Source of the DNA: Syntrophobacterales bacterium
GTDB lineage: Bacteria > Desulfobacterota > Syntrophobacteria > BM002
Assembly (NCBI GenBank): GCA_050124835.1
Contig: JASFEM010000004.1
Span: 3,588 to 67,587, forward strand
Length of the DNA stretch: 64,000 nucleotides
Direction of reading: 5' to 3'
The translations under genes were made by a program, and so were the position numbers. Below, one piece after another: positions 5,527 to 56,880 of the stretch; positions within the stretch are counted from its first letter, which is position 1, and each line of letters starts with the position of its first letter. Below the pieces are notes generated by a model. It saw only the letters and a program-made list of their open reading frames with translations, was not told where the DNA came from and ran no database searches.

Positions 5527-5558
5527 ATTGAGTGTAAACTGGCCTGGGGCTTTGCCCC

Positions 5559-5677
5559 GATTGGAATATTGGAACAATGGAATACTGGAATGATGGATCA
5601 CAAGGGAAAAACATTAATATGATTCTTTGTAGTTTTGTCACCCAAGATTCCATGATTCCAACATTCCACTATTCCAA
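5559..5677. repeat. inverted pair of 8-nt tandem arrays (NNNTGGAA)x4, spacer, (TTCCANNN)x4, inside the ABC operon between the second permease and the first ATPase
   Basis: Forward array TATTGGAA CAATGGAA TACTGGAA TGATGG at 5559-5596. Its reverse complement TTCCATGA TTCCAACA TTCCACTA TTCCAA lies at 5648-5677. A short GGGGC-TTT-GCCCC hairpin sits just upstream. Confidence 0.75.
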
Positions 5678-5811
5678 ACGCAGCGCAATTAGAAGCGTCG
5701 TAAAAAAGACTCAAACCTCATTAAATTGTCGTGTTTCAGATACGTTTACGATGAATAAACTATTATTAATAGCGTTCAATTGCGCATTATCGCGCAATTG
5801 AGGGTCTACAA

Positions 5812-19994: not shown

Positions 19995-20023
19995 GGCGCA
20001 AGGCACAAGGCACAAGGAGTCAG
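19995..20023. repeat. heptamer tandem array (AAGGCAC)x3-4
   Basis: The sequence reads GGCGCAA GGCACAA GGCACAA GGAGTCA. Confidence 0.7.
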
Positions 20024-20132
20024 AATTTAGAAGATAAGAGCTGAAACGAGTCTCTCCCCTGGCTACTGACTACTTGCCTTGATCTGGTCGACAGGTCTCG
20101 TCGCAGGGCCGACTACTGGATTCTTTGAAATA

Positions 20133-20164
20133 GCCTTACGCCCTGGGCCTTGAGCCTTATGCCC
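20133..20164. repeat. heptamer tandem array (GCCTTAN/CCTTRNG)x4, the same family as 56767-56801
   Basis: GCCTTACG CCCTGGG CCTTGAG CCTTATG CCC, near-identical in pattern to the array upstream of the gene at 56881. Confidence 0.7.
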
Positions 20165-20234
20165 AAGTTACAAAATATCTACCGTTTGGAACTCGAATTT
20201 CGCGCTCAACGATAGTGGCTAATAGGAGAATATT

Positions 20235-20666
20235 ATGTGCGATCAGTGTGACTACCTTGGTCTCCTTGAAAATAGTGGTTTGGGCCATACTGCCAATCGA
20301 CTCAGTGTCCTGGAAATCATCGGAAACAGTCCCCACCCGCTGAGTGCCCAAGAAATTATTGAAAGATTGAACCGAACCCAAGGGATAAACAGAGTTACCG
20401 TTTACCGTAACCTCGACCTTTTGGTGGAGAATAGACTGGTTGAGCGCATTAGCGCCGGTGACCGCTCCTTCCGTTACGGTCTGGCTCCAAATATTAATCA
20501 TGAACCTCATTCCCACTTTTATTGTACAGAATGTGGCGAAATGGAATGCATCAAACCCGAATTTGTTTATCTGAACATGGAATCGCTCGAGCGCACTTTT
20601 CTTGGATTGATTGAAAGAGTGGAAGTCCGCTTTGATGGCATCTGCGAGGATTGTCGAAGGGGGTAA
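20235..20666 (+). CDS. zur: Fur-family metalloregulator, likely zinc uptake regulator
   Basis: 143 aa with a winged-helix N-terminus, HxH/CxxC metal sites (HEPHSHFYCTECG ... CEDC), and a position immediately after znuACB. Confidence 0.7.
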   Translation: MCDQCDYLGLLENSGLGHTANRLSVLEIIGNSPHPLSAQEIIERLNRTQGINRVTVYRNLDLLVENRLVERISAGDRSFRYGLAPNINHEPHSHFYCTECGEMECIKPEFVYLNMESLERTFLGLIERVEVRFDGICEDCRRG

Positions 20667-20670
20667 CTTT

Positions 20671-20746
20671 AGATTGTGGATTGTAGATTGCGGATTGCAG
20701 ATTGTAGATTGTGGATTGCAGATTGTAGATTGTGGATTGCAGATGC
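20671..20746. repeat. long heptamer tandem array (RGATTGY)x about 11 between the convergent zur and GAF-HD-GYP genes
   Basis: AGATTGT GGATTGT AGATTGC GGATTGC AGATTGT AGATTGT GGATTGC ... Its translation on the minus strand produces the artefactual ICNPQSTICNPQST ORF. Confidence 0.85.
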
Positions 20747-25558: not shown

Positions 25559-25954
25559 CGCATCAATGTGCGATTGCAGCACAGGTGAACATACAGACGA
25601 GCGCTTTAATCCGTGTTTGTCCATACGTTTTCACATGGTGCCGCAGGCTTCTACAATTAGGTTGTCGGTTAGCCTCTGATATCCGACTAATGAATGCTAG
25701 CCGGTGCCGACCTGCCCTGACCGGTAGCGGCACAATATGGGCGGCCGAGAACTTTAATGAACGTCTCAGCCTGGCAGCGCTATTTGAGCAGCCCATCCTC
25801 TCCGTCTAAAAGTACCTTTTATTCCTCTCCGATACGCTATGCCGGTTTTCAGCTCTTAGGGTTAAAAACAGCAAGAACCATACCATTCCATCCATCGCCT
25901 GTCTACCCCGGCAGCGGTAACCTATCCTCCCCCAAAGGGGTGATGCTAAATTCA

Positions 25955-26098
25955 ATTGGAATGGTGGAATAATGGAACAAAGGAATGATGGGAAAAGAGC
26001 GAAAAACTTCACAACTCATGATGCTCAACCGCTCCGTACATTCGATCTACGTACTTAAACCCATTATTCCAACATTCCAGCATTCCAGCATTCCAATA
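25955..26098. repeat. inverted pair of 8-nt tandem arrays (NNNTGGAA)x4-5, about 70-nt spacer, (NNNTTCCA)x4, same family as 5559-5677
   Basis: Forward array ATTGGAA TGGTGGAA TAATGGAA CAAAGGAA TGATGGG at 25955-25992. Reverse array TTATTCCA ACATTCCA GCATTCCA GCATTCCA at 26063-26094. Confidence 0.75.
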
Positions 26099-26396
26099 GC
26101 CCTAGGCTTGTGTTTGCAGCCAAGCCCACAACCTGCGGGACCGACCGGCTCAGAGTGACCAGGTTCTCCATGACTGATTAACTCCAAGAGATTCCGAATA
26201 TTTCGTGGAGTACCCAGACCAAATATCACTTTTTCTCTTGCCAGTTTTTCCGCCTTCTTGTAGCCTGAAATTAGCCCATTTTTTGCTCGCCAGCGCGAAT
26301 TTCATCCTGATTTTCTTTTGCTCTGATGGGCCTGCAATCCAGCATCTTGGACATTTTGGGCAACAAGTTTTAGTGTCCCTTTATGAGGACAACGAA

Positions 26397-29009: not shown

Positions 29010-29408
29010 ATGCTCCATACCTTAATCGTTGAGGACAACGCTACATTTAGAGAATCGCTCAAGGAGATATTGTGCGACCGATTCCCCTCTCTGGTTGTGG
29101 AAGAAGCTGGGGACGGTAAGGAGGCGCTAGAGAAAATTGAGACCTTTGTGCCGCACCTCGTCTTTATGGACATAAGACTGCCTGGAGCAAGCGGCCTTGA
29201 AATAACCGGCAAAATAAAGGCACGCCACACTCAGATTGTCGTCATAATTCTTACTAGCTATGATCTTCCAGAGTATCGACAGGCAGCAGAACAATTCGGA
29301 GCCGATTACTTCCTTTCAAAAGGGGCAACGAGTGCTAAGGAGATTTTGGCGTTGGTGGGTGATATCTCCACTCGAATAGGTTTCGATTTAAATGGTCCGA
29401 ACCGCTAA
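29010..29408 (+). CDS. single-domain response regulator (CheY-like)
   Basis: 132 aa with receiver fold only. The phospho-aspartate context is VFMDIRLPGASG. Confidence 0.75.
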   Translation: MLHTLIVEDNATFRESLKEILCDRFPSLVVEEAGDGKEALEKIETFVPHLVFMDIRLPGASGLEITGKIKARHTQIVVIILTSYDLPEYRQAAEQFGADYFLSKGATSAKEILALVGDISTRIGFDLNGPNR

Positions 29409-29649
29409 CCCATACGGAAAAGACGCGAGCTCTAATGATTCACCCGGAAGTCTACACTCCATTATTTGCAGAAATACAGTATTTCTCCGCACGATCTACT
29501 CAATTCACCTGATTTACATCTAATTCATCATCAGTAACCTAGGGGTCATATTTACATTCCTACACCCCGAAACCTCAGATAAGAGTCCGTTTCAAGAGAA
29601 TATACGAATGCGGCTCAAGCCGCCGCTCACTCTTTTTAGGAGTACAACC

Positions 29650-30918
29650 ATGCCAGTATCTCTCGATCATGAGTCCTTTAGCTTGACTATTCAAGATTTG
29701 GGCTTTGAGTATGTTTTGGACGGTGCGGAATCCTTTTCTGGGATAGAGCTCAACCCCACTGCAGCAGACCCAGCATTGGATGAGTTCAACAAAAACCAGG
29801 GTCATGCGGGGAAGATTGATCTGCCGAAATCCCACACACCTCCGCAAGCTGAGGAAGAAGAACAGTTTCAAAAAAATCTTATCAGTTTCTATCTGAGAGA
29901 TGTCTCTCAATTTTCTCTGCTAACTCCTGAGCGCGAGATTGAATTGGCCAAGACCATAAAAGAAAGCCAAGAACTGCTCGTGAACCTTGTTGTCCACAAT
30001 TGTGCTGCTGAAAACCACTTCCCCCATCTTCGTCAGAAGATCCTTAATTGGCAAAGCGACGTAGAATCTTATCCAGGATTGCGCGAGAAGATGGTGGTCT
30101 ATATTGTATCCACCCTGGAAAAAGCTGCGGCTCAAGAGGGAGCTTCTGAAATATGCCAAGAATTGAACGCTCGGGTTCGAGACATTGTTGCCAGAATCAA
30201 CTCAGCTAAGGATGAAATGGTTAAAGCTAACCTCCGACTGGTTTTAAGCATTGCCAAGCGGTATCGCGGCCGAGGCCTGAGCTTTCTCGATCTTGTCCAG
30301 GAGGGCAACATGGGGCTGCTCAAAGCGGTTGTTCGATATGACTATACCAAGGGGAACCGTTTCAGCACTTATGCTACTTGGTGGGTACGGCAGTCCATTA
30401 TCCGAGCCATCTATGAGAAGACCAACACCATTAGGCTCCCGGTGCATGTTGTTGAGATGAAAACTTTCTTTTCTAAGATCACTTCAGAACTTACAGAGGA
30501 ACTGGACCGCGCGCCCAGTCCCTTGGAGATTGCCGAACGCTGTGGATACCCTCTTGAAAAAGTCACGATGCTCGCCCAGCTCTCTAATCGACCAGCCTCT
30601 CTCGAAGCGCCGGTTGGACAGATGGAGCAGCGGCTTACTGACGTCATAGAAGACAAGACTATTCCCTCGCCTCTTGAAGGGATCAGCCAACAGGAGCTTG
30701 TGGATGTCATCCGCAAGGTTCTGGCCTCGCTATCTCCCCGGGAGGAGGGAGTGCTCAAGTCACGTTTCGGTATCGATGGCAAGCCCTCACAGACACTCAA
30801 GACTATTGGTGGGCGGTTAGGTGTATCAAAGGAACGCATCCGCCAGATAGAGAAAAGGGCCATCAATAAACTGCGACAAAACTCGCGCTCCGAGCAACTC
30901 AGGTGTTTTGTTGAATAG
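29650..30918 (+). CDS. RNA polymerase sigma-70 family factor, group 2-like (RpoD/RpoS-related) with an N-terminal extension of about 190 aa
   Basis: Region 2 DLVQEGNMGLLKAVVRYDYTKGNRFSTYATWWVRQSIIRAI is near-identical to the RpoD consensus. Regions 3 and 4.2 (LGVSKERIRQIEKRAINKL) are present. At 423 aa it is too short for a primary sigma. An AGGAG RBS precedes the ATG at 29650. Confidence 0.75.
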   Translation: MPVSLDHESFSLTIQDLGFEYVLDGAESFSGIELNPTAADPALDEFNKNQGHAGKIDLPKSHTPPQAEEEEQFQKNLISFYLRDVSQFSLLTPEREIELAKTIKESQELLVNLVVHNCAAENHFPHLRQKILNWQSDVESYPGLREKMVVYIVSTLEKAAAQEGASEICQELNARVRDIVARINSAKDEMVKANLRLVLSIAKRYRGRGLSFLDLVQEGNMGLLKAVVRYDYTKGNRFSTYATWWVRQSIIRAIYEKTNTIRLPVHVVEMKTFFSKITSELTEELDRAPSPLEIAERCGYPLEKVTMLAQLSNRPASLEAPVGQMEQRLTDVIEDKTIPSPLEGISQQELVDVIRKVLASLSPREEGVLKSRFGIDGKPSQTLKTIGGRLGVSKERIRQIEKRAINKLRQNSRSEQLRCFVE

Positions 30919-31020
30919 GGTTATACCGGCCCAATGAATGGATCGGCTTATAGAACCTGATAAATTTAGGCAATTTCAGAGAAGGTGTTTCGCATGTTTT
31001 GGAAAACGGTTATAAACTTT

Positions 31021-31222
31021 GCTCCGCAACTGCTATTGAGGGCTGAGTCATTCCCTCCGCTTACGCTCAGTCTGCTACCTCGCGGGGGGAAGTCCTTCGG
31101 AGCGGAGGCAGAGGCAGCCTGAGCTGCGGATGTGCCAGCCTTTGCTGTTTTGCTTGGGTAGAGTTGTCTCCTTTAAAAGACAAAGGCTGGCCACATACGC
31201 CGCTTCGGGAATATGCCAGCCC
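31021..31222 (-). repeat. copy C (reverse orientation) of an approximately 200-bp dispersed element with terminal inverted repeats
   Basis: Reverse complement aligns to 44346-44552 over both ends (CTCCGC..TTGAGGGCTGAG.CATTCCC ... GGGAATATGCCAGCCC). This copy carries an internal 11-bp-stem hairpin GCCAGCCTTTG...CAAAGGCTGGC. Confidence 0.7.
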
Positions 31223-31330
31223 ACATCTATACGGAGTTAAGTACATAGGCGTTTTCTAAATATACGGCCCCGCTATTATCTTAGCGGTGTGGAATGAAGT
31301 GGCTGCAACATTGGGGTAAGGAGGAAAACC

Positions 31331-31531
31331 ATGCATATTTGTAATCAGTGTGAGAGAAGATTCGCTGAGAGTAAACCTAATATGATCGTTTGTAGCGGTA
31401 AGGAGATCTGTTTTTTCTGCAGTGCAAGCTGTAGGGATGAATGGATGTTCCCTAAGTTATTGCTTGAATGGGTGCGCACCACTGTTCCAAATAGCGAGTT
31501 GGATCGAGCGCTGCAACCATTAAAATCGTGA
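31331..31531 (+). CDS. small TRASH-domain (C-X2-C-X22-C-X3-C) metal-binding protein
   Basis: 66 aa with Cys4, Cys7, Cys30 and Cys34 in TRASH/YHS spacing. A strong AAGGAGG RBS lies 7 nt upstream. Confidence 0.55.
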   Translation: MHICNQCERRFAESKPNMIVCSGKEICFFCSASCRDEWMFPKLLLEWVRTTVPNSELDRALQPLKS

Positions 31532-31544
31532 AGAATAAAGGGAC

Positions 31545-31583
31545 ACGCCTTGGGCTGCCCCCCCAAGGGGGCTTTAGGCGTCT
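31545..31583 (+). terminator. rho-independent terminator-like nested hairpin after the TRASH gene
   Basis: ACGCCTTGGGCTGCCCCCCCAAGGGGGCTTTAGGCGT followed by CTTT. Confidence 0.45.
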
Positions 31584-31630
31584 TTCCTGCACACGGTAGT
31601 CAGTTGGAGTAATGGAGCCCAACGACTTTA

Positions 31631-31738
31631 GATTTTAGAATGCAGATTTAAGATTTAAGAGCTTAGGACCTCATAGTAAGGAAAGCATGTAACCTCAATC
31701 TGGAATCTGCAATCTGAAGTCTGCAATCTGCAATCCTT
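31631..31738. repeat. composite element: forward heptamer array (AGATTNN)x4-5, 34-nt spacer, reverse array (CAATCTG)x6
   Basis: Forward AGATTTT AGAATGC AGATTTA AGATTTA at 31631-31663. Reverse CAATCTG GAATCTG CAATCTG AAGTCTG CAATCTG CAATCC at 31698-31738. It shares the left flank GTTGGAGTAATGGAG with the copy at 32684. Confidence 0.8.
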
Positions 31739-32248
31739 TAGGTCATCACTAGGGCGGTAATCGTTGACTTGTTTGAGCTCTAGTCATGACCCTTCCGCAT
31801 TACCAAGTCTCCGCCTTCCGCAGTGCCTCTTCTATCTCCTCGATCATCTTAAATCCATGGATCAATCCGTTCTCCGTTCACTTAAACGCCCTGCGCATTG
31901 CTGAAAATAGGAAAACCCCACCTCTGCGGCTCCATGCAGAGGTGGGGCGAATCCAGGGAGGTTTCAATAGGATAGAGTGTAAACGGGGAAAATTTATACC
32001 CTACCCGTCTGATAGTATAACCTGAAAATAAGGCAGAGGGAATATGGTGGTCCCGGAGTAAGCAAAAATGGAAGATTGATGCCCCATGAGTCCAAGTAGG
32101 TTAGCCTTTTCGGATAAAAACGGATCCCAAAAGAATCGCCACTAGTAAAAACTATCAAACGGAGTGAGAACAGGAGAATGAGGCTTCTTTACCTACTATT
32201 CTATGTAGTATATGGTTGTAAGAAAACGAAAGAGAGGAGGATACCGTT

Positions 32249-32584
32249 TTGGCATGGACCATCGACGATGCAGTTTCAGATAAGAATCTTAGAGATGCCA
32301 AGATTCATCTTCAAGAGGTGTCTTTTCGCCTCGGCGACCTTACTCCCAAAATTCGGATAAGACTTTTTAGATACCCAGGAGACAAAGAAGTCTACTTTGA
32401 GCAAAGCCACTTCATTCAAACACCCGGTCAAGAAAGTGTATTTTTTCCGGCGATGAAATCTGATAATAGTGAAGCCTATGCGTTGACCCATGCTGTTGAG
32501 GGTCTGACTCACACTTACGAAGCTGCCGTGGAACTGGGGCACGAGCCCTCTGACGTTTGGTTGGTGACTAATCCAGACTTCTGA
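32249..32584 (+). CDS. hypothetical protein
   Basis: 111-aa ORF with reasonable codon usage and no recognisable motifs. It lies between two repeat composites. Confidence 0.3.
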   Translation: MAWTIDDAVSDKNLRDAKIHLQEVSFRLGDLTPKIRIRLFRYPGDKEVYFEQSHFIQTPGQESVFFPAMKSDNSEAYALTHAVEGLTHTYEAAVELGHEPSDVWLVTNPDF

Positions 32585-32683
32585 GCAAAGAATCCAGAAC
32601 AGGGACCTTTCTTTGAGCTGCGTCCAGAGCTAGTCTTTCCTTGGGGCGAGAGTCTGTTGGTGTAATGGAGTAAGGATCATTTC

Positions 32684-32763
32684 AGATTTTAGAATGCAGA
32701 TTGCAGATTTTTTTAACGAATTAAAAACAGCAACTTTAAAACAAAATCTGAAATCTACAATCC
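32684..32763. repeat. second copy of the composite element: forward (AGATTNN)x4, AT-rich spacer, reverse (AAATCTR)x3
   Basis: AGATTTT AGAATGC AGATTGC AGATTTT ... AAATCTG AAATCTA CAATCC. The flanks GTAATGGAG upstream and CAATCCT downstream are shared with 31631-31738. Confidence 0.8.
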
Positions 32764-32775
32764 TCTGAGCTTTGG

Positions 32776-32811
32776 CCTGGCCCAAAGGACCAGGTTACCG
32801 GGACGCTAATG
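32776..32811 (+). promoter_or_regulatory. conserved leader motif CCTGGCCCAAAGGACCAGGTTACCGGGAC..AATGAG, shared with 56833-56880
   Basis: About 29 of 32 nt are identical between the two loci. It contains the imperfect palindrome TGGCCC-AAA-GGACCA. Here the AATGAG includes the annotated start codon of the radical SAM gene. Confidence 0.5.
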
Positions 32812-33816
32812 AGCTCTGAGAATGACCTAAAAGAGTGCACGCTTTGTGAGCACAGGTGCGGCGTGGACCGTGTGGCTGGCGAACTGGGCGTGTGCCGCAT
32901 CGCCGGTCCCATTGTCGCATCGAGAACCCTTCATCCAGCCCCTCCGGAAAGCTATACCATCTTCGTTGCGGGATGCAACTTCAAGTGCGTAGGCTGTCAA
33001 AATTGGACCATATCCCAGTTTCCTGATAATCGGATGCCCATAGAGGGTTATGTGGATCCCAAATCCCTCGCCCAGGAATCCGTAAAAATGCTGGAATCGA
33101 CCGCTGGAATTCTTATGGGCGCCGACAGGATATTCTTCTCTGGGGGTGAACCCACAATCCATCTTCCTTTCATAGAAGAGGTTGTAAAAGAGGCCAGACG
33201 GCTCAGGCCCTCTTTGAAGGTTAATTTTGATACCAATGGCTTTATGACGGAAGAATCTCTCAAAAGAATCTTGAATTTCACCACCTCCATGACTTTTGAC
33301 ATCAAAGCCTTCTATAACGACACCATGAGGGCTATTACCGGGGCCCCGGTTGAACCTGTCCTGAGAAATGCAGAAATAGTAGCTAGAACTGCCAGTGAAA
33401 AGCTGTGGGAATATAGAATAGTCGCAATACCCGAGGTAAACGAGGATGATATTGAACCTCTCTGCCGTTTCCTCGCCTCCATATCTAAAAATCTTCCTGT
33501 CTGTTTTCTCTCTTTCAGACCAAACTATGTTATGGATGAACACCCCGGGGCCACGCGGGAACTCATGAGGCAGTGCGTTGAGCAGGCCAGGCTTGCTGGT
33601 TTAAGAAATGTTACCTATGCCGGTACAACGAATATTCCGGGAAAGGTAGGAGTCCTCCAGAGAAAGGTGGAGGGGGATTATAGCAGAAGAGGGGCCAAGA
33701 TGGCCGCGTCTTACGCTCTTTCAAAAGGCTGTAATACACACCCCAGAGATTGCTCTAATTGTCCGTCTATGAGTACGTGCCCACTCAAGAAGTATTTACC
33801 CCTCAGGAGTTCCTAA
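32809..33816 (+). CDS. radical SAM enzyme (PFL-activase / AmmeMemoRadiSam-like)
   Basis: N-terminal Cys cluster CTLCEHRCGV...GVC, followed by the canonical CNFKCVGCQNW (CxxxCxxC) motif and a GGEPT glycine-rich SAM motif. Confidence 0.65.
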   Translation: MSSENDLKECTLCEHRCGVDRVAGELGVCRIAGPIVASRTLHPAPPESYTIFVAGCNFKCVGCQNWTISQFPDNRMPIEGYVDPKSLAQESVKMLESTAGILMGADRIFFSGGEPTIHLPFIEEVVKEARRLRPSLKVNFDTNGFMTEESLKRILNFTTSMTFDIKAFYNDTMRAITGAPVEPVLRNAEIVARTASEKLWEYRIVAIPEVNEDDIEPLCRFLASISKNLPVCFLSFRPNYVMDEHPGATRELMRQCVEQARLAGLRNVTYAGTTNIPGKVGVLQRKVEGDYSRRGAKMAASYALSKGCNTHPRDCSNCPSMSTCPLKKYLPLRSS

Positions 33817-33894
33817 CCGTCCGGATTCGCAAGTCAAGATTAGAAGGCGGCGCTGAGGCCGGTGGACTTTGGATCACGCGATGCAACTCTTGCC

Positions 33895-33927
33895 AAATGA
33901 CCATTGACTAATGACCAATGACTATCC
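33895..33927. repeat. heptamer tandem array (NAATGAC)x4 between the convergent radical SAM and glycoside hydrolase genes
   Basis: The sequence reads AAATGAC CATTGAC TAATGAC CAATGAC TATCC. Confidence 0.7.
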
Positions 33928-33946
33928 ACAAGCTGTAAGCTTCGGC

Positions 33947-36622
33947 CTAGCTCCGGCCTCCTGATTGCTGGATGAGCTTGGCCACCAGCCCGGTCCAACC
34001 CGTCTGATGGCTGGCCCCTAAGCCGGCACCATTGTCACCGTGAAAATATTCGTTGAACAAGATCAGATCGCGCCATAAGGGATCTCGCTGGAATTTTTCC
34101 AGTCCACCGTAAATCGGACGATCACCCTCGCCATTTATAAGAAAGAGACTCATCAGACGCCGGGACAACTCGGTGGCCACCTCCCACAGAGTCATCCACT
34201 GACCAGACCCGGTGGGACATTCGATTTTCAGGTCATCACCATAGTAGTGATGGAATTTCTGCAAAGACTCAATAATTAGGTAATTCATGGGAAACCAGAT
34301 GGGACCCCTCCAGTTGGAGTTGCCTCCGAACAGACCGCTCTCAGACTCGGCTGGTTGGTAATTGATCGTGTGGGGTTGCCCGTCAACGTGGAAGCTGTAA
34401 GGATGCGTCCAGTGATACTTCGAAACAGAGCGAATGCCATAATCGGAGAGAAACTCATTTTCATCCAGCATTTTCCCCAAAACCCGCACGAGCCGGTCCT
34501 GGGTCAAGATGGCTAGCAGCCGACGCTCGCCAATACCTGGCGTTTCGATACAGGCCAGATTTCCGCTCAAGTGAGGGCGATTGCTGTAGAACCACTGCAT
34601 TCGCCTCTCAAAAACCGGCATGGTTTCCAGGATTTCCGGTTCGATGGTGTCCACTGCAAACAAGGGAAGCAGTCCCACCATGGAGCGCACCTTCAAAGCA
34701 ACGACCCGATCGTCGGGCAGATGAAGCGCGTCGTAGAAGAAGCCGTCCTCCTCATCCCAGAGACTGTGCCCATGACCACCACAGTCGGTCATTGCATGAG
34801 CTATACGCAGAAAGTGCTCGAAAAATTTTGTGGCCACATCCTGATAAACAGGGTTCTCCTTGGCCAATTCTAGAGCTATTTTCAGCATGGACAAGCAGAA
34901 CGCGCCCATCCAGGCAGTGCCATCTGCTTGGTCTATGTGTCCACCTGTGGGTAGCGCTTGGCTGCGATCAAAAACACTGACGTTATCCATGCCAAGAAAA
35001 CCGCCCTGGAAAACGTTTCTGCCGTCTTCATCTTTGCGGTTGACCCACCAGGTGAAATTCAAAAGCAATTTGTGAAAAACTGATTCCAAGAAGTCACGGT
35101 CCGGTCGTCCCCATTGCTTCCCGTCAATTTTGTACACTCTCCAGGCAGCCCAGGCCGGAACCGGCGGATTAACGTCGCCAAAGGACCATTCATAGGCCGG
35201 CAACTGCCCGTTGGGATGCATGTACCACTCTCGGGTAATCAACTCCAGCTGCCGCTTGGCGAAATCGGGATCAACCAGGGTCAGAGGGATGCAGTGAAAG
35301 GCCAGATCCCAAGTGGCGTACCAGGGGTACTCCCATTTGTCCGGCATGGAGATGATGTCGAAGTTAACGAGATGATCCCAATCATGGTTACGCCCGTGCA
35401 TGCGAGATCGTGGTGGTGTCGGTTCGCCAGGATCGCCCTTTAACCATTGTTCTATGTCGTAGTAATAAAGTTGCTTGGACCAGAGCATTCCGGCCAGGGC
35501 TTGGCGCTGCACCCGTTTCTCATCTTCACTTAGATTGTGGGGTTGCACGGCCGCGTAAAACTCATCCGCTTCAGCCAGTCGCTGCCCGAAGATTGCATCG
35601 AAGTTCTGAAATGGCTCTTTGTGCGCCATCTTTGACAATCGTAGTCGGAGAGCGACTGATCCCTCAGGAGTGATGGTTTCCTTAAAGAGCGCGGCCGTTT
35701 TCGTACCCGTCCGCTCAGGGTTGACTGCAGTGGTTTCAGCGTCGATCACATACCGATGAAATGCGTCTTTGACATAGGGATTAGGGTTGGGAAGACCGTA
35801 GAGCCGTTCTGCGTTGGTCTCATTTTCCGTGAAGATCAGCTCCTCCGCCCCTTCGGCATAGAGAAAGTAGGTCCCGGCTGCCGGGTGGTCAACCTCCACC
35901 GTGGATACACCCGCAGTCCTTTCCAGCAGGTGCAGCTGGGGTTTACCCGGTGTGTCGGCCATGGGGCCGTCCTCGTAGCCCCAACTCCAGGTGTTCCTGA
36001 ACCAGAATGTCGGCAAAATATGACACTCGGCCGGTTCAGGCCCACGATTAACCACGGTAATTTTTACCAAAATATCTTCTCGGTCCGCTTTGGCGTACTC
36101 AACAAACACATCAAAGTAGCGATTATCTCCAAAAATTCCAGTATCGAGGAGCTCGTATTCTAAATCGTGGTATCCGCGCCGCCCATTTTCGGCGACCAGT
36201 TCTGCATAAGGAAACTCGCCCTGCGGGTACTTGTAGAGCATTTTCATGTAGCTGTGGGTAGGGGTGCTGTCGAGATAGAAGTAATACTCTTTCACGTCCT
36301 CACCGTGATTGCCTTGCGAGCCAGTGAGCCCAAACAGTCGTTCTTTTAAGATCGGGTCGCGACCATTCCAGAGAGCCAGCCCGAAGCAAAGATGCTGATT
36401 TCGGTCACTGATCCCTGCCAGGCCGTCCTCACCCCAACGGTAGGCTTTGCTGTGGGCATGATCGTGCGGGAAAAAGTCCCAGGCTTCTCCGTCCTCACTG
36501 TAATCCTCTCGTACCGTTCCCCAGGAGCGCTCACTGATATATGGCCCCCATTTTTTCCAATTCGACTTGCGCTCGCGGTATTCGGTCAACCGCTTATGTT
36601 CATCTGTTTGCTTCATGGACAT
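33947..36622 (-). CDS. large (alpha/alpha)6-barrel glycoside hydrolase (clan GH-G, GH63 / glucosidase or mannosylglycerate-hydrolase-like)
   Basis: 891 aa with aromatic/acidic blocks ([46 protein letters not shown]) typical of GH63/GH37-type six-hairpin enzymes. Glucokinase is adjacent. Confidence 0.55.
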
Positions 36623-36705
36623 TCCCCTGCGACCCTGAACTGCCAGGAGACTTGCTTAAGAAATCGCAAATCATTTCGAAAAACACATTTATTAACCTCA
36701 TCACA

Positions 36706-36840
36706 GGTTGGGCTTGAGGGCTGAGGTATTCCCGACGCGGCGTATGTTGCCAGCCTATGCAAACTTGAATGGTTAGGCCGTCCTGCATGTTGCTGCAGAG
36801 GATGGCAATCCCGCGTCTCGCGGGACTCGGGCTGCCAGCT
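36706..36840 (+). repeat. copy B (truncated) of the approximately 200-bp dispersed element
   Basis: GGTTGGGCTTGAGGGCTGAGGTATTCCCGACGCGGCGTATGTTGCCAGCCTATGCAAACTTGAATGGTTAGGCCGT matches copy A over its first 130 nt or so. It lies in the 270-bp gap between the glycoside hydrolase start and the glucokinase stop. Confidence 0.7.
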
Positions 36841-36891
36841 GTCTGCTGTCTGCTTAGAAGTGCTCTATGCTCTCTGCCCCATGCCCTATGC

Positions 36892-37899
36892 TTATTTCGA
36901 CAAGCGGCTAAGGGCACAATGTGCCGCCCCCAACAGGGCCGCCTGCTCGTTGAGAATCACCCGGACAGGTATTTTCTCTAACAATTCACTGAACCTGCCT
37001 TTGTTTGTAAATGCCTGCATAAACATAGATTCCTTCAGTTTAGGCAGGATTTTAGGTGGGATCCCACCACCCAGGTAAACACCTCCCGTCGTCATCGCGA
37101 TTAAGGCCAGGTTACCGGCAACTGCTCCAAATATGGAGACAAACATATTCAATGCCGCCACGCACACGGGATGTTTACCATCCAGTGCGGCTTCGGTAAT
37201 CGCCCTTGCCGGATCCATCTCTTCCATGTTCCTGGCTAACCAGGTAGGTATCCGATGGCGGCCGGTGTCTTTGAGCCATAGATAAATATTTACCAATCCG
37301 GGACCAGACAAGACCCTTTCTACGCTGACGTGCCCAAATCGTTTATGAAGGTAACGCCACAATTTGATTTCCGCTTCGGTGTTTGGAGAAAAATCGATGT
37401 GCCCCCCCTCAGAAGGTACAGGGACGTACTCCCCGTCTCGAAAAATAAGCAATGCCTTCCCCAGACCCGTGCCTGGAGCGACCAACGCAAGGTTTTGCCC
37501 TTTGCGACTTTTTGCCTTGTTCAAGCGAAAGAGCTCTCGACTGTTCAGAAGAGGAATGGCATGCGCCGTGGCTGTCAAGTCATTTATAAGAGAGACATGG
37601 GCCCACTCGAAGCGTTTTTTAATCTTATCTTCGGCGACGTACCACGGCAAATTGGTTGTTTGGCATCGCCCATTTATCACCGGACCCGCAATACCAAAGC
37701 ATGCACTCTGAACCGGCACCTGATGTTTGTCCAAAAATCGTGCGATGATCCACTCCAGATTCGGCGCCTCCCTGCTGGAATAAGTCTCAATTACCTTTGC
37801 AGCAGGACGGGTCCTTCCTTGACGGAAAAAGCCGAGGTTCGTCTTTGTCCCCCCAATATCACCGGCTAAAACAAAAAGATCACTCTCAGGATTTTTCAT
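36892..37899 (-). CDS. glk: glucokinase (Glk family)
   Basis: N-terminal ATP motif LAGDIGGTKTNLGFF, with length and downstream blocks consistent with bacterial Glk. Confidence 0.7.
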   Translation of the reverse strand: MKNPESDLFVLAGDIGGTKTNLGFFRQGRTRPAAKVIETYSSREAPNLEWIIARFLDKHQVPVQSACFGIAGPVINGRCQTTNLPWYVAEDKIKKRFEWAHVSLINDLTATAHAIPLLNSRELFRLNKAKSRKGQNLALVAPGTGLGKALLIFRDGEYVPVPSEGGHIDFSPNTEAEIKLWRYLHKRFGHVSVERVLSGPGLVNIYLWLKDTGRHRIPTWLARNMEEMDPARAITEAALDGKHPVCVAALNMFVSIFGAVAGNLALIAMTTGGVYLGGGIPPKILPKLKESMFMQAFTNKGRFSELLEKIPVRVILNEQAALLGAAHCALSRLSK

Positions 37900-44281: not shown

Positions 44282-44345
44282 TTCATAACCTCCAAATTGC
44301 CAATTAGAGAATTTCGCAATACGTACATAAATTTAACCTAGCATA

Positions 44346-44552
44346 GGTTGGGCTTGAGGGCTGAGTTATTCCCAAAGCGGCGTATGTTGTAAGCCTATGC
44401 AAGCTTCAATGGTTAGGCCGTGCTGCCTTTAGCTGCAGAGGCTGGCGACATCCGCAGCTCGGGCTGCCATTGCCTCCGGTCCGAAGCACTTCCCCCCGCA
44501 AGTGTAGCAGACCGAGCGTAAGCGGAGGGAATGGCTTAGCGCTCAAGCCTTT
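44346..44552 (+). repeat. copy A (full length) of the approximately 200-bp dispersed element with terminal inverted repeats
   Basis: 5-prime end GGTTGGGCTTGAGGGCTGAGTTATTCCC. 3-prime end GGGAATGGCTTAGCGCTCAAGCC. These are imperfect reverse complements of each other. Confidence 0.7.
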
Positions 44553-46447: not shown

Positions 46448-48109
46448 GTGAGTTCAATGACTGTAAAAAACTCGGAGAAACTCAAGTGGTGGGGCTGGGG
46501 ACCAGAAGGCCAGAGTTACGCTCTGCCCGATCCGCAGGGTTTCTGGTCATTTCTTGAAAACAGCCTGGGCCCACTTCAAAAGAGCTCGCGGGTTGCTTCC
46601 CCGAATGACATCCATTTGCCGCCTTCTCGTCTGGCCTCCGCGGACCTTGAAGAACTCACAAAGTTACTCGGTGACAACGGGGTGACCACTGGACCATCGG
46701 ACCGGTTAGTTCACGCTCTGGGGAAATCCTACGTTGATCTTCTCCAGATACGTCAAGGGCATGTATCCGCTGCACCAGATGGAGTTATTTTCCCAGAGAA
46801 AGAGGAACATGTTCAGGCTGTATTGGAACTAGCCCACCAAAAGAACTGGGCTATTATCCCCTTCGGCGGGGGGACTTCGGTAGTGGGTGGCGTGGAACCC
46901 ATGCCTGATAGTCAGGTAGTGCTCACGCTTGATCTGGAACGCATGAACCGCGTCCTTGAAATAGATCCCGTCTCCAACACCGCAAGAATCCAGAGTGGTA
47001 TCCGGGGACCAGAACTGGAGGCACAGCTTTATGCTAATGGCTTTACCTTGGGACATTTCCCCCAATCTTTTGAATTCTCGACACTAGGTGGCTGGATTGC
47101 GACGCGCTCGGCAGGGCAGAATTCCACCAAGTATGGGAAGATCGAGCACATGGTGGTCAGCCTGAGGATAATCACACCAACCGGTATTTTGGATTCCCCA
47201 GTGGTACCGGCAGATGCAGTGGGGCCTTCCCTGCTTCAATGTCTGATTGGTTCAGAGGGCACTTTAGGGGTAATCACCCAAGCTGTAGTCCGTCTTCATC
47301 CTATCCCCCAGCACAGGGTTTTCGCTACATACCTTTTTCCGGATTTCGCTGAAGGCGTCTCTGCTGTGCGTCAAATGTTGCAAGCAGATCTGCGGCCAGC
47401 GGTGCTCAGGCTTTCTGACCCTGACGAGACCGCAATGGCTGTGTTGCTTGGTAAATCGCCGCGCTCATCTTTCAAGGAATTCCTAGGCCATTGGTATATC
47501 CGCTTTCGGGGATTTGACCTCCAGCGGTCCGCTCTCCTTATCTTGATTTTCGAGGGAACTCGCAATCTGGTTTCGGCGGCGAGACGCGAAACGCACCGCT
47601 TCTTGCGATCGGGACTTTATCTGGGGGGCCACCCTGCCAGGGAGTGGATGAAATCTCGCTTTCACCATCCGTATCTCCGGGATGACCTGCTGGATCGCTC
47701 GGTAATGGTGGACACTTTGGAGACTGCCGCACCCTGGGAGAGACTGCCAACGCTTTATGCAGCGGTACGCCAGACACTCTCCGAATCGATCCTTAGCACT
47801 GCCCCGGGCGCGTTGGTGTTCAGCCATCTATCCCACGCCTATCCGGATGGTGCCTCCCTGTATTTTACCTTTATGGCCCGGCAGCAAGCCGGACGTGAGT
47901 TGGAGCAATGGCAGTTGATTAAAGAAGCGGCCACCGAAGCGATAATCAAGCATGGCGGTGCCCTTAGCCATCACCATGGTATCGGTAGCATGCACAAACC
48001 CTGGGTTCAGTCTTATCTGGGGCCTGGAGCTCTGGCATTTCTCGAGCAGCTGAAAAGAAAAATAGACCCAGAGAACATCATGAATCCCGGAAAACTATTG
48101 GGAACTTAA
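46448..48109 (+). CDS. FAD-linked oxidase, alkyl-dihydroxyacetonephosphate synthase (AGPS)-like
   Basis: N-terminal KWWGWG tryptophan/glycine motif as in AGPS. PCMH-type FAD-binding region (VIFPEKEEHVQAVLELAHQKNWAIIPFGGGTSVVGG). The C-terminal HHHGIG motif is typical of the FAD-oxidase_C family. Confidence 0.6.
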   Translation: MSSMTVKNSEKLKWWGWGPEGQSYALPDPQGFWSFLENSLGPLQKSSRVASPNDIHLPPSRLASADLEELTKLLGDNGVTTGPSDRLVHALGKSYVDLLQIRQGHVSAAPDGVIFPEKEEHVQAVLELAHQKNWAIIPFGGGTSVVGGVEPMPDSQVVLTLDLERMNRVLEIDPVSNTARIQSGIRGPELEAQLYANGFTLGHFPQSFEFSTLGGWIATRSAGQNSTKYGKIEHMVVSLRIITPTGILDSPVVPADAVGPSLLQCLIGSEGTLGVITQAVVRLHPIPQHRVFATYLFPDFAEGVSAVRQMLQADLRPAVLRLSDPDETAMAVLLGKSPRSSFKEFLGHWYIRFRGFDLQRSALLILIFEGTRNLVSAARRETHRFLRSGLYLGGHPAREWMKSRFHHPYLRDDLLDRSVMVDTLETAAPWERLPTLYAAVRQTLSESILSTAPGALVFSHLSHAYPDGASLYFTFMARQQAGRELEQWQLIKEAATEAIIKHGGALSHHHGIGSMHKPWVQSYLGPGALAFLEQLKRKIDPENIMNPGKLLGT

Positions 48110-49786: not shown

Positions 49787-49982
49787 CTTGTATCACAAAA
49801 ATATCTATGTCTTTTATCTCTCACAGAGATCACAACCGGCTTATAATCCATTGTTTACCAATAACTAGGCAGTAGGCACATAAAACTTGCCTCTTAGAGC
49901 TAGTCTGTTACTCTAGAGCTTTCGGCATTTGCGCCTGACAATTTCTTTCAAACAGTAAACAAATAGTTGTTTGTATTTTTTT

Positions 49983-52085: not shown

Positions 52086-52092
52086 GAACCAT

Positions 52093-56151: not shown

Positions 56152-56766
56152 AAACGGTGCCTCGGGGGGAAAACCCCACCTTGCTTTTTAAAGGATTCGG
56201 TTTGCGGTTCCCCTTGGGAACCATACTAACAGTTAATTCTTAGTGATGTAACTCCCGGCAAAACTTTTGACTCCGTGTTGCATTCTTCCAACACCTGAGG
56301 TGATTACCCAACATTTTTTCACCCGGCCTTGAGTGCAAGCTAGACGGCACCAAGTAGACTAAGTCATTAAAAAATCTCAATAATTTTCCAAAAACAGTAA
56401 TTGGCATGTTTCTTGTTTTAGGAGCAGGGTCGTTTATTGGCTTCTACCAGTATGGGTTTGGATTGAAACGAAAGGAAATGCAGATGAAGACTGACCTGCA
56501 ACATATATTGAATCCTTTGAAACTATGGAGCCGATTTGGTGGCAATTTCACCCAAGTCTTTAAGCTATACGAAACCTACTGCTGGAAACCTTTCTTGAGG
56601 AGATGGCTCAGCAAAGACTTGAAGGCTTAGGGTCAATTTGTGAATAACGTCCATAACATAGGAGTAGAGAATCCAGGTCCAGATAACTTGACTTTGAGCT
56701 GCCCCAAGGGGAAGGCACAGGGCTCAAGGTACCTGCTAAAATGAATCTTGAATACTCTTTTCTTCC

Positions 56767-56801
56767 CTGCGCCTTACGCCTTCAGCCTTATGCCTTGAAT
56801 C
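56767..56801. repeat. heptamer tandem array (GCCTTAN)x5
   Basis: CTGCGCC TTACGCC TTCAGCC TTATGCC TTGAATC. Same family as 20133-20164. Confidence 0.7.
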
Positions 56802-56832
56802 TCTTCTACCGGCAAAGCCATTGAAACTTGAC

Positions 56833-56880
56833 CTGGCCCAAAGGACCAGGTTTCCAGGACTACAATGAGGTGAGAGTATC
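56833..56880 (+). promoter_or_regulatory. second copy of the conserved leader motif CCTGGCCCAAAGGACCAGGTTTCCAGGAC..AATGAG
   Basis: Near-identical to 32776-32811. Here the AATGAG opens a 2-codon uORF (ATG AGG TGA) 16 nt upstream of the main ATG at 56881. Confidence 0.5.

What the first reader, a model, noticed from the sequence alone, without database searches (positions are those of the whole stretch)
32655..32770. Second copy of the composite inverted-array element, directly upstream of the conserved leader motif
It has the same architecture: GTAATGGAG flank, forward AGATTTT AGAATGC AGATTGC AGATTTT, AT-rich spacer, reverse AAATCTG AAATCTA CAATCC. It sits 10 nt before the conserved CCTGGCCCAAAGGACCAGG motif of the radical SAM gene. 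The element may therefore deliver or modulate a promoter.
Basis: seen in the sequence. Interest (0 to 1): 0.55.

Follow-up and report, generated by a model that had tools for sequence, protein, structure and literature searches.

The report
Decayed copy of hairpin-capped intergenic repeat
The inverted heptamer arrays upstream of the radical SAM gene, together with the "conserved leader motif" next to them, are one worn-out copy of a non-coding repeat family that fills gene spacers in sediment sulfate-reducer-type bacteria; I found no evidence that it is a promoter or a leader specific to this gene.

Summary
Window 32662-32763 holds GTAATGGAG, four forward AGATTnn heptamers, an AT-rich centre and three reverse heptamers. 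The hairpin CCTGGCCCAAAGGACCAGG starts 12 nt further on. The interpretation changes.

- **The hairpin belongs to the element.** There it caps both ends of a 250-345 nt composite element: AGTAAAGAAT + hairpin + CTTTGG + CCCC/GGGG hairpin, forward 7-10-mer array, AT-rich centre, reverse array, GGCAGAGCC..CTCTGA, hairpin + TTTTTCAGGGCAAAATAAA.
- **The family is dispersed and polymorphic.** Subfamilies have near-identical copies in different flanks, and canonical copies fold strongly (median z -5.2). One genome carries three copies where two 90-93% relatives have none.
- **The window copy is decayed.** The whole spacer 32585-32806 aligns to this plan, folds weakly (z -1.5) and has lost the T-run. 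The sister genome (about 93% nt) lacks it: 44 nt separate the upstream ORF from the radical SAM ATG.
- **No promoter evidence.** No sigma-70-like match was found, and family orientation relative to downstream genes is unbiased (34 same, 26 opposite).

Best reading: a non-autonomous mobile repeat of the MITE/BIME/BOX kind, with no match in Rfam or in the papers searched. The mobilising enzyme is unknown.

The parts
32585..32595 (+). Left-end outer flank remnant GCAAAGAATCC (family consensus AGTAAAGAAT-CC), directly after the TGA stop of ORF 32249-32584
   Evidence: Alignment A1 to canonical copies. By eye and alignment only; the left-end profile did not reach significance here.
32596..32655 (+). 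Decayed left cap: remnant of the 19-nt hairpin (AGAACAGGGACCTTT), CTTTGAGCTGC (consensus CTTTGGTTTGC) and a degenerate CCCC/GGGG hairpin region
   Evidence: Alignment A1. Inferred homology.
32656..32670 (+). Two 8-mer units GTTGGTG TAATGGAG, the start of the left array. The same TGGAG 8-mers build the arrays of canonical copies L141 and L081, and of L006.
32684..32711 (+). Forward heptamer array AGATTTT AGAATGC AGATTGC AGATTTT
32712..32743 (+). AT-rich centre (loop of the array hairpin)
32744..32763 (+). Reverse heptamer array AAATCTG AAATCTA CAATCC, complementary to the forward array
   Evidence: arms 23 nt, 83% complementary
32764..32775 (+). TCTGAGCTTTGG, remnant of the family's CTCTGA box that precedes the right cap
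32776..32794 (+). Right-end cap hairpin CCTGGCCCAAAGGACCAGG (7 bp with a bulged A).
   Evidence: (profile E = 8e-8)
32795..32806 (+). Decayed right tail TTACCGGGACGC (consensus TTTTTCAGGGCAAAATAAA); the T-run is lost
   Evidence: The element boundary agrees with the end of non-alignment to L004 (32583-32804).
31531..31790 (+). First copy (element 1): GTGAAGAAT, CCCCCCCAAGGGGG hairpin, GTTGGAGTAATGGAG, forward AGATTnn array 31629-31660, reverse array 31696-31736. The right cap is no longer recognisable.
   Evidence: The sister genome has a different inverted array (AAGGTAC/GTACCTT) at this site.
56663..56869 (+). Third copy (element 3), nearly full plan: AGTAGAGAAT, decayed cap, CTTTGAGCTG, CCCCAAGGGG, forward AAGGCAC-type array, reverse GCCTTAC-type array 56770-56796, GGCAAAGCC..CTTGA, exact cap 56832-56850, tail TTTCCAGGACTACAATGAG
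   Evidence: (right end E = 6e-13, left end E = 1.3e-3). Absent in the sister genome (233 nt against 38 nt).
5530..5690 (+). Related inverted 8-mer array (TGGAATAA / TTATTCCA) with a shortened left end GTAAACTGGCC..CTTTGCCCC
   Evidence: (z -3.9). The same 8-mers occur in canonical copy L085.
25929..26182 (+). Related inverted 8-mer array element with a CCCCAAAGGGG hairpin and a weak right-end remnant at 26157-26182
   Evidence: z -7.6; E = 0.15
32249..32584 (+). Context: conserved 111-aa ORF of unknown family that precedes the element
32809..33816 (+). Context: radical SAM gene (PF04055; glycyl-radical-activase / AmmeMemoRadiSam-like, below all NCBIfam cut-offs)

Best explanation
Window 32585-32806 is one decayed copy of a non-coding, non-autonomous dispersed repeat family, which I call the hairpin-capped inverted-array element.

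**Intact plan (250-345 nt).**
- Left cap: AGTAAAGAAT, the 19-nt imperfect palindrome CCTGGCCC-ARA-GGACCAGG, CTTTGGTT, then a CCCC-loop-GGGG hairpin.
- A forward array of 7-10-nt units, an AT-rich centre, and the reverse-complement array.
- GGCAGAGCC-N6-7-CTCTGA.
- Right cap: the same palindrome followed by TTTTTCAGGGCAAAATAAA.

**Shown.**
- The caps and the outer boundaries are shared between subfamilies, while each subfamily has its own array units.
- Copies lie at many different genomic sites, in either orientation relative to neighbouring genes.
- Copies are present or absent at orthologous sites of close relatives.
- Intact copies fold into a long hairpin flanked by the cap hairpins.
- The window copies fold poorly and have degenerate ends.

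**Inferred.**
- The element moves as DNA through an enzyme encoded elsewhere that recognises the palindromic caps.
- It lands in AT-rich spacer DNA or in short-period arrays, with little or no target duplication.
- Afterwards it decays by point mutation, array slippage and internal deletion.

**At this locus.** The copy sits in the spacer of what is otherwise a tight ORF111-radical SAM gene pair, so it is most likely co-transcribed as part of that mRNA. Its terminator-like cap has lost the T-run. Any effect would come from RNA hairpins acting on read-through, stability or translation, not from a promoter.
For: **Family and architecture.**
- Position-wise consensus: gGCAgAgCC..TCTGA-cap-TTTT..Agg.CaAAATAAA, with a sharp right boundary.
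- Full copies run from cap to cap. Hairpin spacing clusters at 200-310 nt, giving whole elements of about 250-345 nt.
- The loci hold 31 left ends, 66 right ends and 17 solo caps.

**Dispersed and multi-copy.**
- Three subfamilies have 8-9 near-identical copies each, in different flanks.
- At least 100 distinct flanks were seen, and 52 of 122 motifs lie within 300 nt of a locus end against 24 expected.
- Neighbouring genes are ordinary housekeeping genes, with no recurrent protein among them.

**Structure.**
- Eighteen canonical copies fold with z from -3.6 to -12.4, median -5.2.
- The cap shows the compensatory variant CCGGG..CCCGG at 9 sites, against 1 half-changed site.

**Insertion polymorphism.**
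- L085 carries three elements in 7 kb. The syntenic stretches L161 (93% aa) and L164 (90% aa) have no cap in 13 kb each.
- In the SDR-SLT spacer the extra DNA is exactly AGTAAAGAT...AAAATAAA, inside an 8-mer array, and both flanks align.

**Window copies.**
- Right-end profile hits: 32761-32796 (E = 8e-8) and 56794-56862 (E = 6e-13). Left-end hit: 56663-56710 (E = 1.3e-3).
- Alignment A1 maps the whole spacer onto the plan.
- The sister genome bin40 lacks element 2 (222 nt against 44 nt) and element 3 (233 nt against 38 nt).
- L006, a more distant relative, has a family member with a canonical left cap (E = 1e-9) at the same ORF111-radical SAM spacer.

**Decay.** The fold z-score is -1.5 for element 2 and +0.06 for element 3.
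Against: - No transposase or other mobilising gene was found next to any copy.
- No consistent target-site duplication or target sequence was seen.
- The indels against the sister genome are replacements, not clean insertions. For the window copies, deletion in the relative is as likely as insertion here.
- Invariance of the 19-mer among the metagenome copies is partly by construction, because the scan asked for exact matches.
- Gene calls in the loci are crude longest-ORF calls.
- Twenty-two right-end or solo copies lie 40 nt or less upstream of a co-directional start codon with an intact T-run. That is odd for a neutral terminator-like insertion and leaves room for a function.
- The taxonomy of most metagenome contigs is unknown. 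One was placed near Desulfobacteraceae.
Confidence: 0.65

Rival explanations
1. Cis-regulatory leader or promoter for the radical SAM gene. The element supplies a promoter, and the CCTGG..CCAGG hairpin is a 5' leader or attenuator of that transcript.
For: - The cap lies 14 nt before the ATG at 32809. A second copy lies 30 nt before the start of the 792-aa gene at 56881.
- In the family, 22 right-end or solo copies lie 40 nt or less upstream of a co-directional start, with hairpin and T-run intact. That is the shape of an attenuator.
- The reverse heptamers contain a TACAAT hexamer at 32756-32761.
Against: - No sigma-70-like -35/-10 pair was found.
- The motif is absent from all 36 loci that encode relatives of this protein in other genomes.
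- The sister genome has a 44-nt spacer and no element.
- The downstream gene has the same orientation 34 times and the opposite orientation 26 times.
- Downstream genes are unrelated housekeeping genes.
Confidence: 0.07
2. Host-selected structural element. The caps act as terminators or insulators, and the long hairpin acts as an mRNA stabiliser or RNase target (REP/BIME-like domestication). Copies would be kept for that role rather than as selfish DNA.
For: - The canonical caps are GC-rich hairpins flanked by an A-tract and a T-run: AAAGAAT-cap-CTTTGGTT on the left and cap-TTTTT on the right. The second hairpin is GCCCC..GGGGC followed by TGTTTT.
- Left ends often start 0-20 nt after a co-directional stop codon.
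- The exact 19-mer survives in otherwise decayed window copies.
- A right-end remnant is conserved among L006-L010.
Against: - Copies are dispensable at orthologous sites in relatives that are 90-95% identical.
- Orientation relative to neighbours is close to random.
- T-runs are equally intact directly upstream of co-directional genes, where termination would be harmful.
- The window copy has lost its T-run and most of its pairing.
Confidence: 0.15
3. The arrays arose in place by replication slippage and hairpin-templated copying in non-coding DNA (simple-sequence-repeat behaviour, as in cyanobacterial STRR or Xanthomonas GGGAATC arrays). No mobility is involved, and the shared flanks are coincidental or locally duplicated.
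For: - Period-7 and period-8 arrays are about ten times and six times over-represented and occur in many spacers, some without recognisable caps.
- Array units differ between orthologous sites of genomes with 91-96% identical genes.
- Over-representation of heptamer repeats in bacteria is known and has been attributed to slippage (PMC4692102).
Against: - Slippage does not explain about 60-nt conserved caps with sharp boundaries shared by copies with unrelated arrays.
- It does not explain near-identical 300-nt copies in different flanks.
- It does not explain the clean filled/empty site whose extra DNA is exactly cap to cap.
- Slippage probably does act on the arrays after insertion.
Confidence: 0.05
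4. A multi-copy structured non-coding RNA gene of about 300 nt that ends at the right-cap terminator, with the arrays serving as a platform for an RNA-binding protein (for example cold-shock-domain proteins, which bind heptamers).
For: - Canonical copies fold strongly and end in a hairpin plus T-run.
- CspB is reported to bind heptamer repeats, one protein per heptamer (PMC4679880).
Against: - Conservation continues 14 nt past the T-run (CAGGGCAAAATAAA), which an RNA 3' end would not need.
- No conserved promoter was seen upstream of the left cap, because the flanks are unrelated.
- No Rfam family matches.
- The arrays are base-paired to each other, so they are not single-stranded platforms.
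Confidence: 0.05

Closest known systems
MITEs with internal structure, e.g. Neisseria Correia elements
   Same: Short, non-coding, multi-copy and intergenic. The ends are conserved across subfamilies. Copies show presence/absence polymorphism between relatives and form a long hairpin when transcribed. Elements of this kind can carry terminator-like or promoter-like pieces (my own knowledge of Correia elements).
   Different: The ends are two copies of one 19-nt imperfect palindrome with asymmetric flanks (10 nt outside on the left, 19 nt outside on the right), not classical terminal inverted repeats. No consistent target duplication was seen. The interior is built of inverted short-period arrays. 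No parent insertion sequence is known.
REP / BIME elements of Enterobacteria and Pseudomonas, with RAYT transposases
   Same: Imperfect palindromes of about 20 nt, highly repeated in spacers between housekeeping genes, combined into larger mosaics, terminator-like, and found in either orientation.
   Different: There is no GTAG or CGTC head next to the palindrome (sequence; criterion from PMC3733652). No RAYT-like gene was seen in the DNA held. The mosaic includes 100-200 nt of inverted heptamer or octamer arrays.
BOX elements of Streptococcus pneumoniae (boxA-boxB(n)-boxC)
   Same: Modular design: conserved end modules that enclose a variable number of internal short repeats. BOX elements are also intergenic and hairpin-forming (my own knowledge).
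   Different: The internal units here are 7-10 nt, arranged as two inverted arrays, and differ in sequence between subfamilies. There is no sequence similarity, and the host phylum is different.
Intergenic heptamer arrays: cyanobacterial STRR, Xanthomonas GGGAATC arrays, Beggiatoaceae TAACTGA repeats
   Same: Tandem heptamers confined to spacers. In Xanthomonas, 70-75 cases of two convergent arrays that could form stem-loops are reported (PMC4692102). Arrays vary in length and sequence between close relatives. TAACTGA sets lie just upstream of start codons (PMC4679880).
   Different: Those reports describe one dominant unit per genome and do not mention conserved capping hairpins. Here many unit families coexist, and the arrays are the interior of a bounded element with conserved caps.
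IS200/IS605-derived non-autonomous elements (PATEs)
   Same: Subterminal imperfect palindromes at both ends on the same strand, with little or no target duplication. The asymmetric distances from hairpin to end (10-12 nt and 19 nt) recall the 19/10 geometry of IS608 (my own knowledge; a lead only).
   Different: No fixed tetra- or pentanucleotide lies next to the insertion point. No TnpA gene was found. The two caps have the same sequence.

Membership tests
Hairpin-capped inverted-array element (family defined here) | Right cap: CTCTGA box + CCTGGCCCAAAGGACCAGG + T-rich tail | tested here: met
   nhmmer profile built from 65 metagenome right ends: window 32761-32796, E = 8e-8. The tail is degenerate (TTACCGGGACGC).
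Hairpin-capped inverted-array element (family defined here) | Left cap: AGTAAAGAAT + 19-nt palindrome + CTTTGGTT + CCCC/GGGG hairpin | tested here: inconclusive
   GCAAAGAATCC and CTTTGAGCTGC align to the consensus in A1, but the left-end profile gives no significant hit at 32585-32655.
Hairpin-capped inverted-array element (family defined here) | Interior of two inverted arrays of 7-10-nt units around an AT-rich centre | tested here: met
   The TGGAG 8-mers are shared with canonical copies L141 and L081 and with L006.
Hairpin-capped inverted-array element (family defined here) | Presence/absence at orthologous sites of close relatives | tested here: met
   Absent in L004 and L005; a family member occupies the same spacer in L006.
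MITE | Terminal inverted repeats | tested here: inconclusive
   The caps are palindromes, so they read as both direct and inverted repeats. In one subfamily the left cap is the reverse complement of the right cap stems. The flanks outside the caps are not inverted copies of each other.
MITE | Target-site duplication of fixed length | tested here: inconclusive
   No consistent duplication in 17 full copies. One clean filled/empty site allows at most 2 bp (CT), and another shows a 10-nt CTGAKTTTAT on both sides.
MITE | An autonomous element with the same ends that encodes a transposase | not testable with these tools
   None was found in about 1 Mb of held loci.
REP/BIME with RAYT | GTAG or CGTC tetranucleotide at the head of the palindrome | tested here: not met
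   The consensus flanks are AGTAAAGAAT and CTCTGA.
IS200/IS605-derived element | Insertion 3' of a fixed tetra- or pentanucleotide | tested here: not met
   The nucleotides flanking both ends vary between copies.
Intrinsic terminator | GC-rich hairpin followed directly by a T-run | tested here: not met
   The window copy has CCAGG-TTACCGGG, and the scan found no terminator there. Canonical right caps do have 4-5 T.
Sigma-70 promoter | -35 and -10 hexamers with 16-18 nt spacing | tested here: not met
   0 sites in 31400-33000, against 1.9 expected by chance.
Any Rfam RNA family | Covariance-model match at the gathering score | tested here: not met
   0 hits in the window. Only chance microRNA-like hairpin hits at E >= 0.46 in 30900-32900. 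0 hits in seven loci with canonical copies.
Integron attC site | RYYYAAC ... GTTRRRY core sites, with cassette genes between sites | tested here: not met
   The consensus ends lack both cores. Flanking genes are syntenic housekeeping genes.

The most novel reading that the evidence does not exclude
The caps mark a mobile-DNA system of a kind not yet described. A host- or element-encoded enzyme would recognise a 19-nt imperfect palindrome, possibly as a single-strand hairpin, and insert or exchange array cassettes between capped sites. This would account for three observations:
- solo caps coexist with filled elements that have a cap at each end;
- array interiors are replaced wholesale between genomes whose genes are 91-96% identical;
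- the two arms of each element evolve in concert.

The arrays would then be an active product or substrate of the system, not passive slippage.
Probability: 0.15. Interest if true: 0.75.

Novelty: new variant of a known kind. Interest (0 to 1): 0.5.

Why it matters
**For this locus.** The result removes a false lead. The "conserved leader" is not a regulatory signal of the radical SAM gene. The gene most likely forms an operon with the 111-aa ORF upstream.

**More broadly.**
- The work defines an apparently undescribed interspersed repeat family. It has a simple 19-nt search handle and occurs exactly in at least 119 metagenome contigs, many from sediment samples, at least one of them Desulfobacteraceae-like. 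The window genome is a Syntrophobacteria-like MAG.
- The family breaks assemblies. It accounts for many of the non-alignable spacers between genomes that are 91-96% identical in their genes. It also puts terminator-like hairpins next to many genes.
- It links intergenic heptamer arrays, a long-noticed and unexplained feature of several phyla, to a bounded element that shows insertion polymorphism. That makes the origin of such arrays testable.

Tried and rejected
- **Literature search with 'STRR'** returned only unrelated papers. The Genome Research paper on small dispersed repeats in Nostoc is not held.
- **Rfam.** Gathering and E-value modes on the window and on canonical loci gave nothing real.
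- **Sequence search of the papers** for the 19-mer and two variants gave 0 papers.
- **Target-site duplication.** Inspection of 17 full copies gave no consistent result.
- **Unbiased hairpin sampling by flank-only patterns.** The patterns were too loose and gave mostly random 19-mers, so I dropped the approach. Covariation therefore rests on the 3/17 pair only.
- **All-against-all BLAST of 659 neighbouring ORFs,** run to find a recurrent transposase, found none. Pfam scans of ORFs lying between caps gave housekeeping proteins.
- **Test for selection against the T-run** upstream of co-directional genes showed no difference.
- **Viral contigs.** One match in 2.9 million contigs, so the family is not phage-borne in general.
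- **MAFFT alignment of the M20-SDR spacer** misplaced the left flank. I read those junctions from the raw sequences instead.
- **Considered and rejected:** integron attC sites, CRISPR-like arrays, CsrA-type GGA sponges (the GGA units are base-paired), and sigma-54 promoter boxes in the GGCAGAGCC region (wrong order and spacing).
Full report
**1. Observation.**
- The sequence at 32655-32770 is as described. It holds GTAATGGAG (32662-32670), four forward heptamers AGATTTT AGAATGC AGATTGC AGATTTT (32684-32711), an AT-rich centre (32712-32743) and three reverse units AAATCTG AAATCTA CAATCC (32744-32763).
- The arms pair over 23 nt at 83%.
- The hairpin motif CCTGGCCCAAAGGACCAGG lies at 32776-32794, 12 nt after the last reverse unit and 14 nt before the ATG of a 335-aa radical SAM gene.
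It shares GTTGGNGTAATGGAG and the first heptamers.
- Alone, this copy is weak statistically. The fold z-score is -1.7 on the + strand and -3.35 on the - strand. The 9-mer flank occurs twice, and 5 of 100 shuffles also reach two matches.

**2. It is one of many.**
- The window is full of short-period arrays: 13 of period 7 and 6 of period 8, against 1.3 and 1.0 in dinucleotide shuffles.
- Where I checked, the arrays lie in spacers between genes.
- The design of forward array, spacer and reverse array recurs with other units:
  - TGGAATAA at 5558-5680 and at 25955-26097 (fold z -3.9 and -7.6);
  - AAGGCAC at 19997-20165 and at 56706-56796;
  - further cases at 52091-52152, 55417-55480 and 62740-62925.
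- The genome is an uncultured Desulfobacterota (Syntrophobacteria-like) MAG. The same sequence is in GCA_050115135.1, and the closest other genome is CP070735.1 'bin40'.

**3. The 'leader motif' is the end of the element.**
- In motif orientation the flanks give a consensus gGCAgAgCC-N-TCTGA, cap, TTTT..Agg.CaAAATAAA. Similarity between copies ends abruptly after it.
- Upstream lie reverse arrays of 7-10-mers.
- A second class of hits has AGTAAAGAAT before the cap and CTTTGGTT plus a CCCC-loop-GGGG hairpin after it.
- Following the copies upstream shows that these two classes are the left and right ends of one element. Hairpin spacing clusters at 200-310 nt, giving whole elements of about 250-345 nt.
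- The loci hold 31 left ends, 66 right ends and 17 solo caps, which have the left flank, the cap and the right tail in about 48 nt.
- Eighteen full copies fold with z from -3.6 to -12.4, median -5.2. The centroid of one copy shows the modules as separate hairpins around one long array hairpin.
- The cap itself is 7 bp with a bulged A. The variant CCGGG..CCCGG, changed on both sides, occurs at 9 sites against one half-changed site.

**4. The window copies fit this plan.**
- Profiles built from the metagenome ends find right ends at 56794-56862 (E = 6e-13) and 32761-32796 (E = 8e-8), and a left end at 56663-56710 (E = 1.3e-3).
- In alignment A1, the whole spacer 32585-32806 lines up with canonical copies:
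  - GCAAAGAATCC directly after the stop codon;
  - a decayed cap, then CTTTGAGCTGC;
  - the heptamers and a CTCTGA remnant;
  - the exact cap and a decayed tail.
- Element 3 (56663-56869) is a nearly complete copy. Element 1 (31531-31790) has a recognisable left part and no right cap.
- These copies fold no better than shuffles, or barely so (z -1.5 and +0.06). They are old and decaying.

**5. Evidence that the family is dispersed and polymorphic.**
- Three subfamilies have 8-9 almost identical copies each, with unrelated flanks.
- At least 100 distinct flanks were seen. Motifs lie near locus ends about twice as often as expected, as repeats that break assemblies do.
- The 659 neighbouring ORFs are almost all unrelated. 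Those I checked are housekeeping genes.
- L085 is from a Desulfobacteraceae-like organism: the best named hit is Desulfobacula sp. at 75%. It carries three elements in 7 kb. The syntenic stretches of two relatives (93% and 90% protein identity) have no cap in 13 kb each.
- In the SDR-SLT spacer of L085, both flanks align to the relatives. The extra DNA is exactly AGTAAAGAT...AAAATAAA, inserted between two units of an 8-mer array, with at most a 2-bp duplication.
- In the window, comparison with 23.6 kb of bin40 synteny (genes 83-96% identical) shows 9 non-alignable stretches, all in spacers that hold arrays or elements. I counted about 13 spacers in this stretch by hand.
- Elements 2 and 3 are missing in bin40 (222 nt against 44 nt, and 233 nt against 38 nt). 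Element 1 is replaced there by a different inverted array.
- These window differences are replacements, not clean insertions. L006, a more distant relative, has a family member with a canonical left cap (E = 1e-9) and the same TGGAG 8-mers in the same ORF111-radical SAM spacer. For element 2, an old insertion followed by deletion in bin40 and L005 is therefore at least as likely as a recent gain.

**6. Tests of function.**
- Promoter: no sigma-70-like pair was found in 31400-33000.
- Gene specificity: among 36 loci encoding relatives of the radical SAM protein, none has the motif; it occurs only in the three same-species contigs L001-L003.
- Orientation: with neighbours of at least 150 aa within 300 nt, the right end faces a co-directional gene 34 times and a convergent gene 26 times. 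Left ends follow a co-directional gene 16 times and a divergent one 9 times.
- Terminator: canonical caps look like intrinsic terminators, and the left cap has an A-tract before it and a T-tract after it.
  - However, T-runs are just as intact in the 22 copies that lie 40 nt or less before a co-directional start codon.
  - Copies are also dispensable in relatives.
  - The window copy has TTACC in place of the T-run.
- Where the element is absent, the radical SAM ATG follows the upstream ORF by 20-44 nt. The two genes are therefore probably one transcription unit, and the element is probably transcribed within it.

**7. Mechanism, with status.**
- *Shown:* the architecture, the conserved caps with sharp boundaries, multi-copy dispersal, subfamilies with private arrays, strong folding of intact copies, presence/absence between relatives, and decay of the window copies.
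- *Inferred:* movement as DNA by a trans-acting enzyme that recognises the palindromic caps; insertion into AT-rich spacers or arrays with little or no duplication; later slippage, arm-to-arm correction and deletion. Exchange of interiors between capped sites by recombination at the caps is a possible explanation for the wholesale replacement of arrays.
- *Not known:* the enzyme, the strand or form that is mobilised, and any host benefit.

**8. Comparison with what is known.**
- No Rfam family matches, and no held paper contains the 19-mer.
- Intergenic heptamer arrays are known in several groups:
  - cyanobacteria and Xanthomonas, including 70-75 convergent pairs in Xanthomonas (PMC4692102);
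  - Beggiatoaceae, cyanobacteria and Bacteroidetes, as TAACTGA repeats (PMC4679880).
- Neither report mentions conserved caps.
- In kind, the element is closest to MITE, BIME and BOX-type interspersed repeats. It fails the REP head criterion (GTAG or CGTC) and the fixed-target criterion of IS200/IS605. The TIR and target-duplication criteria of MITEs are inconclusive.

**9. Caveats.**
- Gene calls in the loci are longest-ORF heuristics.
- The metagenome sample was ascertained on the exact 19-mer, so invariance of the cap there is not evidence of constraint.
- Most contigs have no taxonomy.
- No whole genome could be scanned, so copy number per genome is unknown.

**10. Verdict.** The promoter and leader interpretation is not supported. 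The feature is a decayed member of an apparently undescribed but ordinary-in-kind interspersed repeat family. The family itself, rather than this copy, is what deserves follow-up.

Noticed in passing
window 31915-32031, minus strand: A conserved small-RNA-like element lies between element 1 and the 111-aa ORF. It is 81-83% identical in nucleotides in L006, L007, L008, L010, L011 and L014 (93% in L004), which is more conserved than the neighbouring protein genes (72-75%). It has a conserved TATACT box, a stem with compensatory changes, an invariant UUGAAACCUCCCUGG stretch (anti-Shine-Dalgarno-like CCUCC) and an intrinsic terminator with compensatory changes plus a U-run. The RNAalifold energy is -46.8. 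There is no Rfam match beyond a chance PsrR1 hit (E = 0.86).
   Followed up: partly
window 31036-31225, 36685-36806, 44325-44546: A second, unrelated repeat family of about 200 nt has three copies in 64 kb (direct and inverted, 80-91% identical), all in spacers. The two copies whose sites could be compared are absent from the orthologous sites of the sister genome (323 nt against 133 nt, and 183 nt against 9 nt). It is probably another small mobile element.
   Followed up: partly
window 29306-36983 and 46749-62720, compared with L004 and L159 (CP070735.1): Genes are 83-96% identical in nucleotides. About 9 of 13 spacers (hand count) cannot be aligned at all, because arrays of one unit are replaced by arrays of a different unit. 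Examples are AGTAGCC-type against GCATAGC / ACTAATAAC-type at 55413-55560, and CCTTATA-type against AATGACC-type at 53175-53247. Spacer turnover is far faster than point substitution.
   Followed up: partly
window 20670-20744: The longest array in the window: 10.7 copies of TAGATTG (a 21-nt superunit GATTGCAGATTGTAGATTGTG x 3.5, 94% matches). It starts 4 nt after the stop of a Fur-family gene (20235-20666), in a convergent spacer, and has no inverted partner nearby.
   Followed up: no
L085 (7.2 kb) compared with L161 and L164: One Desulfobacteraceae-like lineage has five caps (three elements) in 7 kb, where two relatives at 90-93% protein identity have none in 13 kb. This suggests a recent burst of the family in that lineage. 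It would be the best place to look for the mobilising enzyme.
   Followed up: partly
L074, oriented positions 407-448: A right cap is followed directly by ATTCTTTACT, the reverse complement of the left-end flank AGTAAAGAAT. Two elements on opposite strands appear to share one palindromic cap.
   Followed up: no
L159 2951-3268 compared with window 49810-50020: The sister genome has a 105-aa PDDEXK_3 (nuclease-fold) ORF in a spacer where the window instead has about 210 nt of unrelated sequence ending in a GTGCTTA heptamer array.
   Followed up: no
window 32809-33816: The radical SAM protein scores far below every NCBIfam cut-off. The best hits are YjjW-type glycyl-radical activase at 85.7 bits (cut-off 250) and the AmmeMemoRadiSam enzyme at 71.9 bits (cut-off 220). 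It is nevertheless conserved (43-92% identity) in Desulfobacterota, Latescibacterota, Nitrospirota, Armatimonadota and several archaeal MAGs. In close relatives it is preceded by the same unannotated 111-aa ORF.
   Followed up: no
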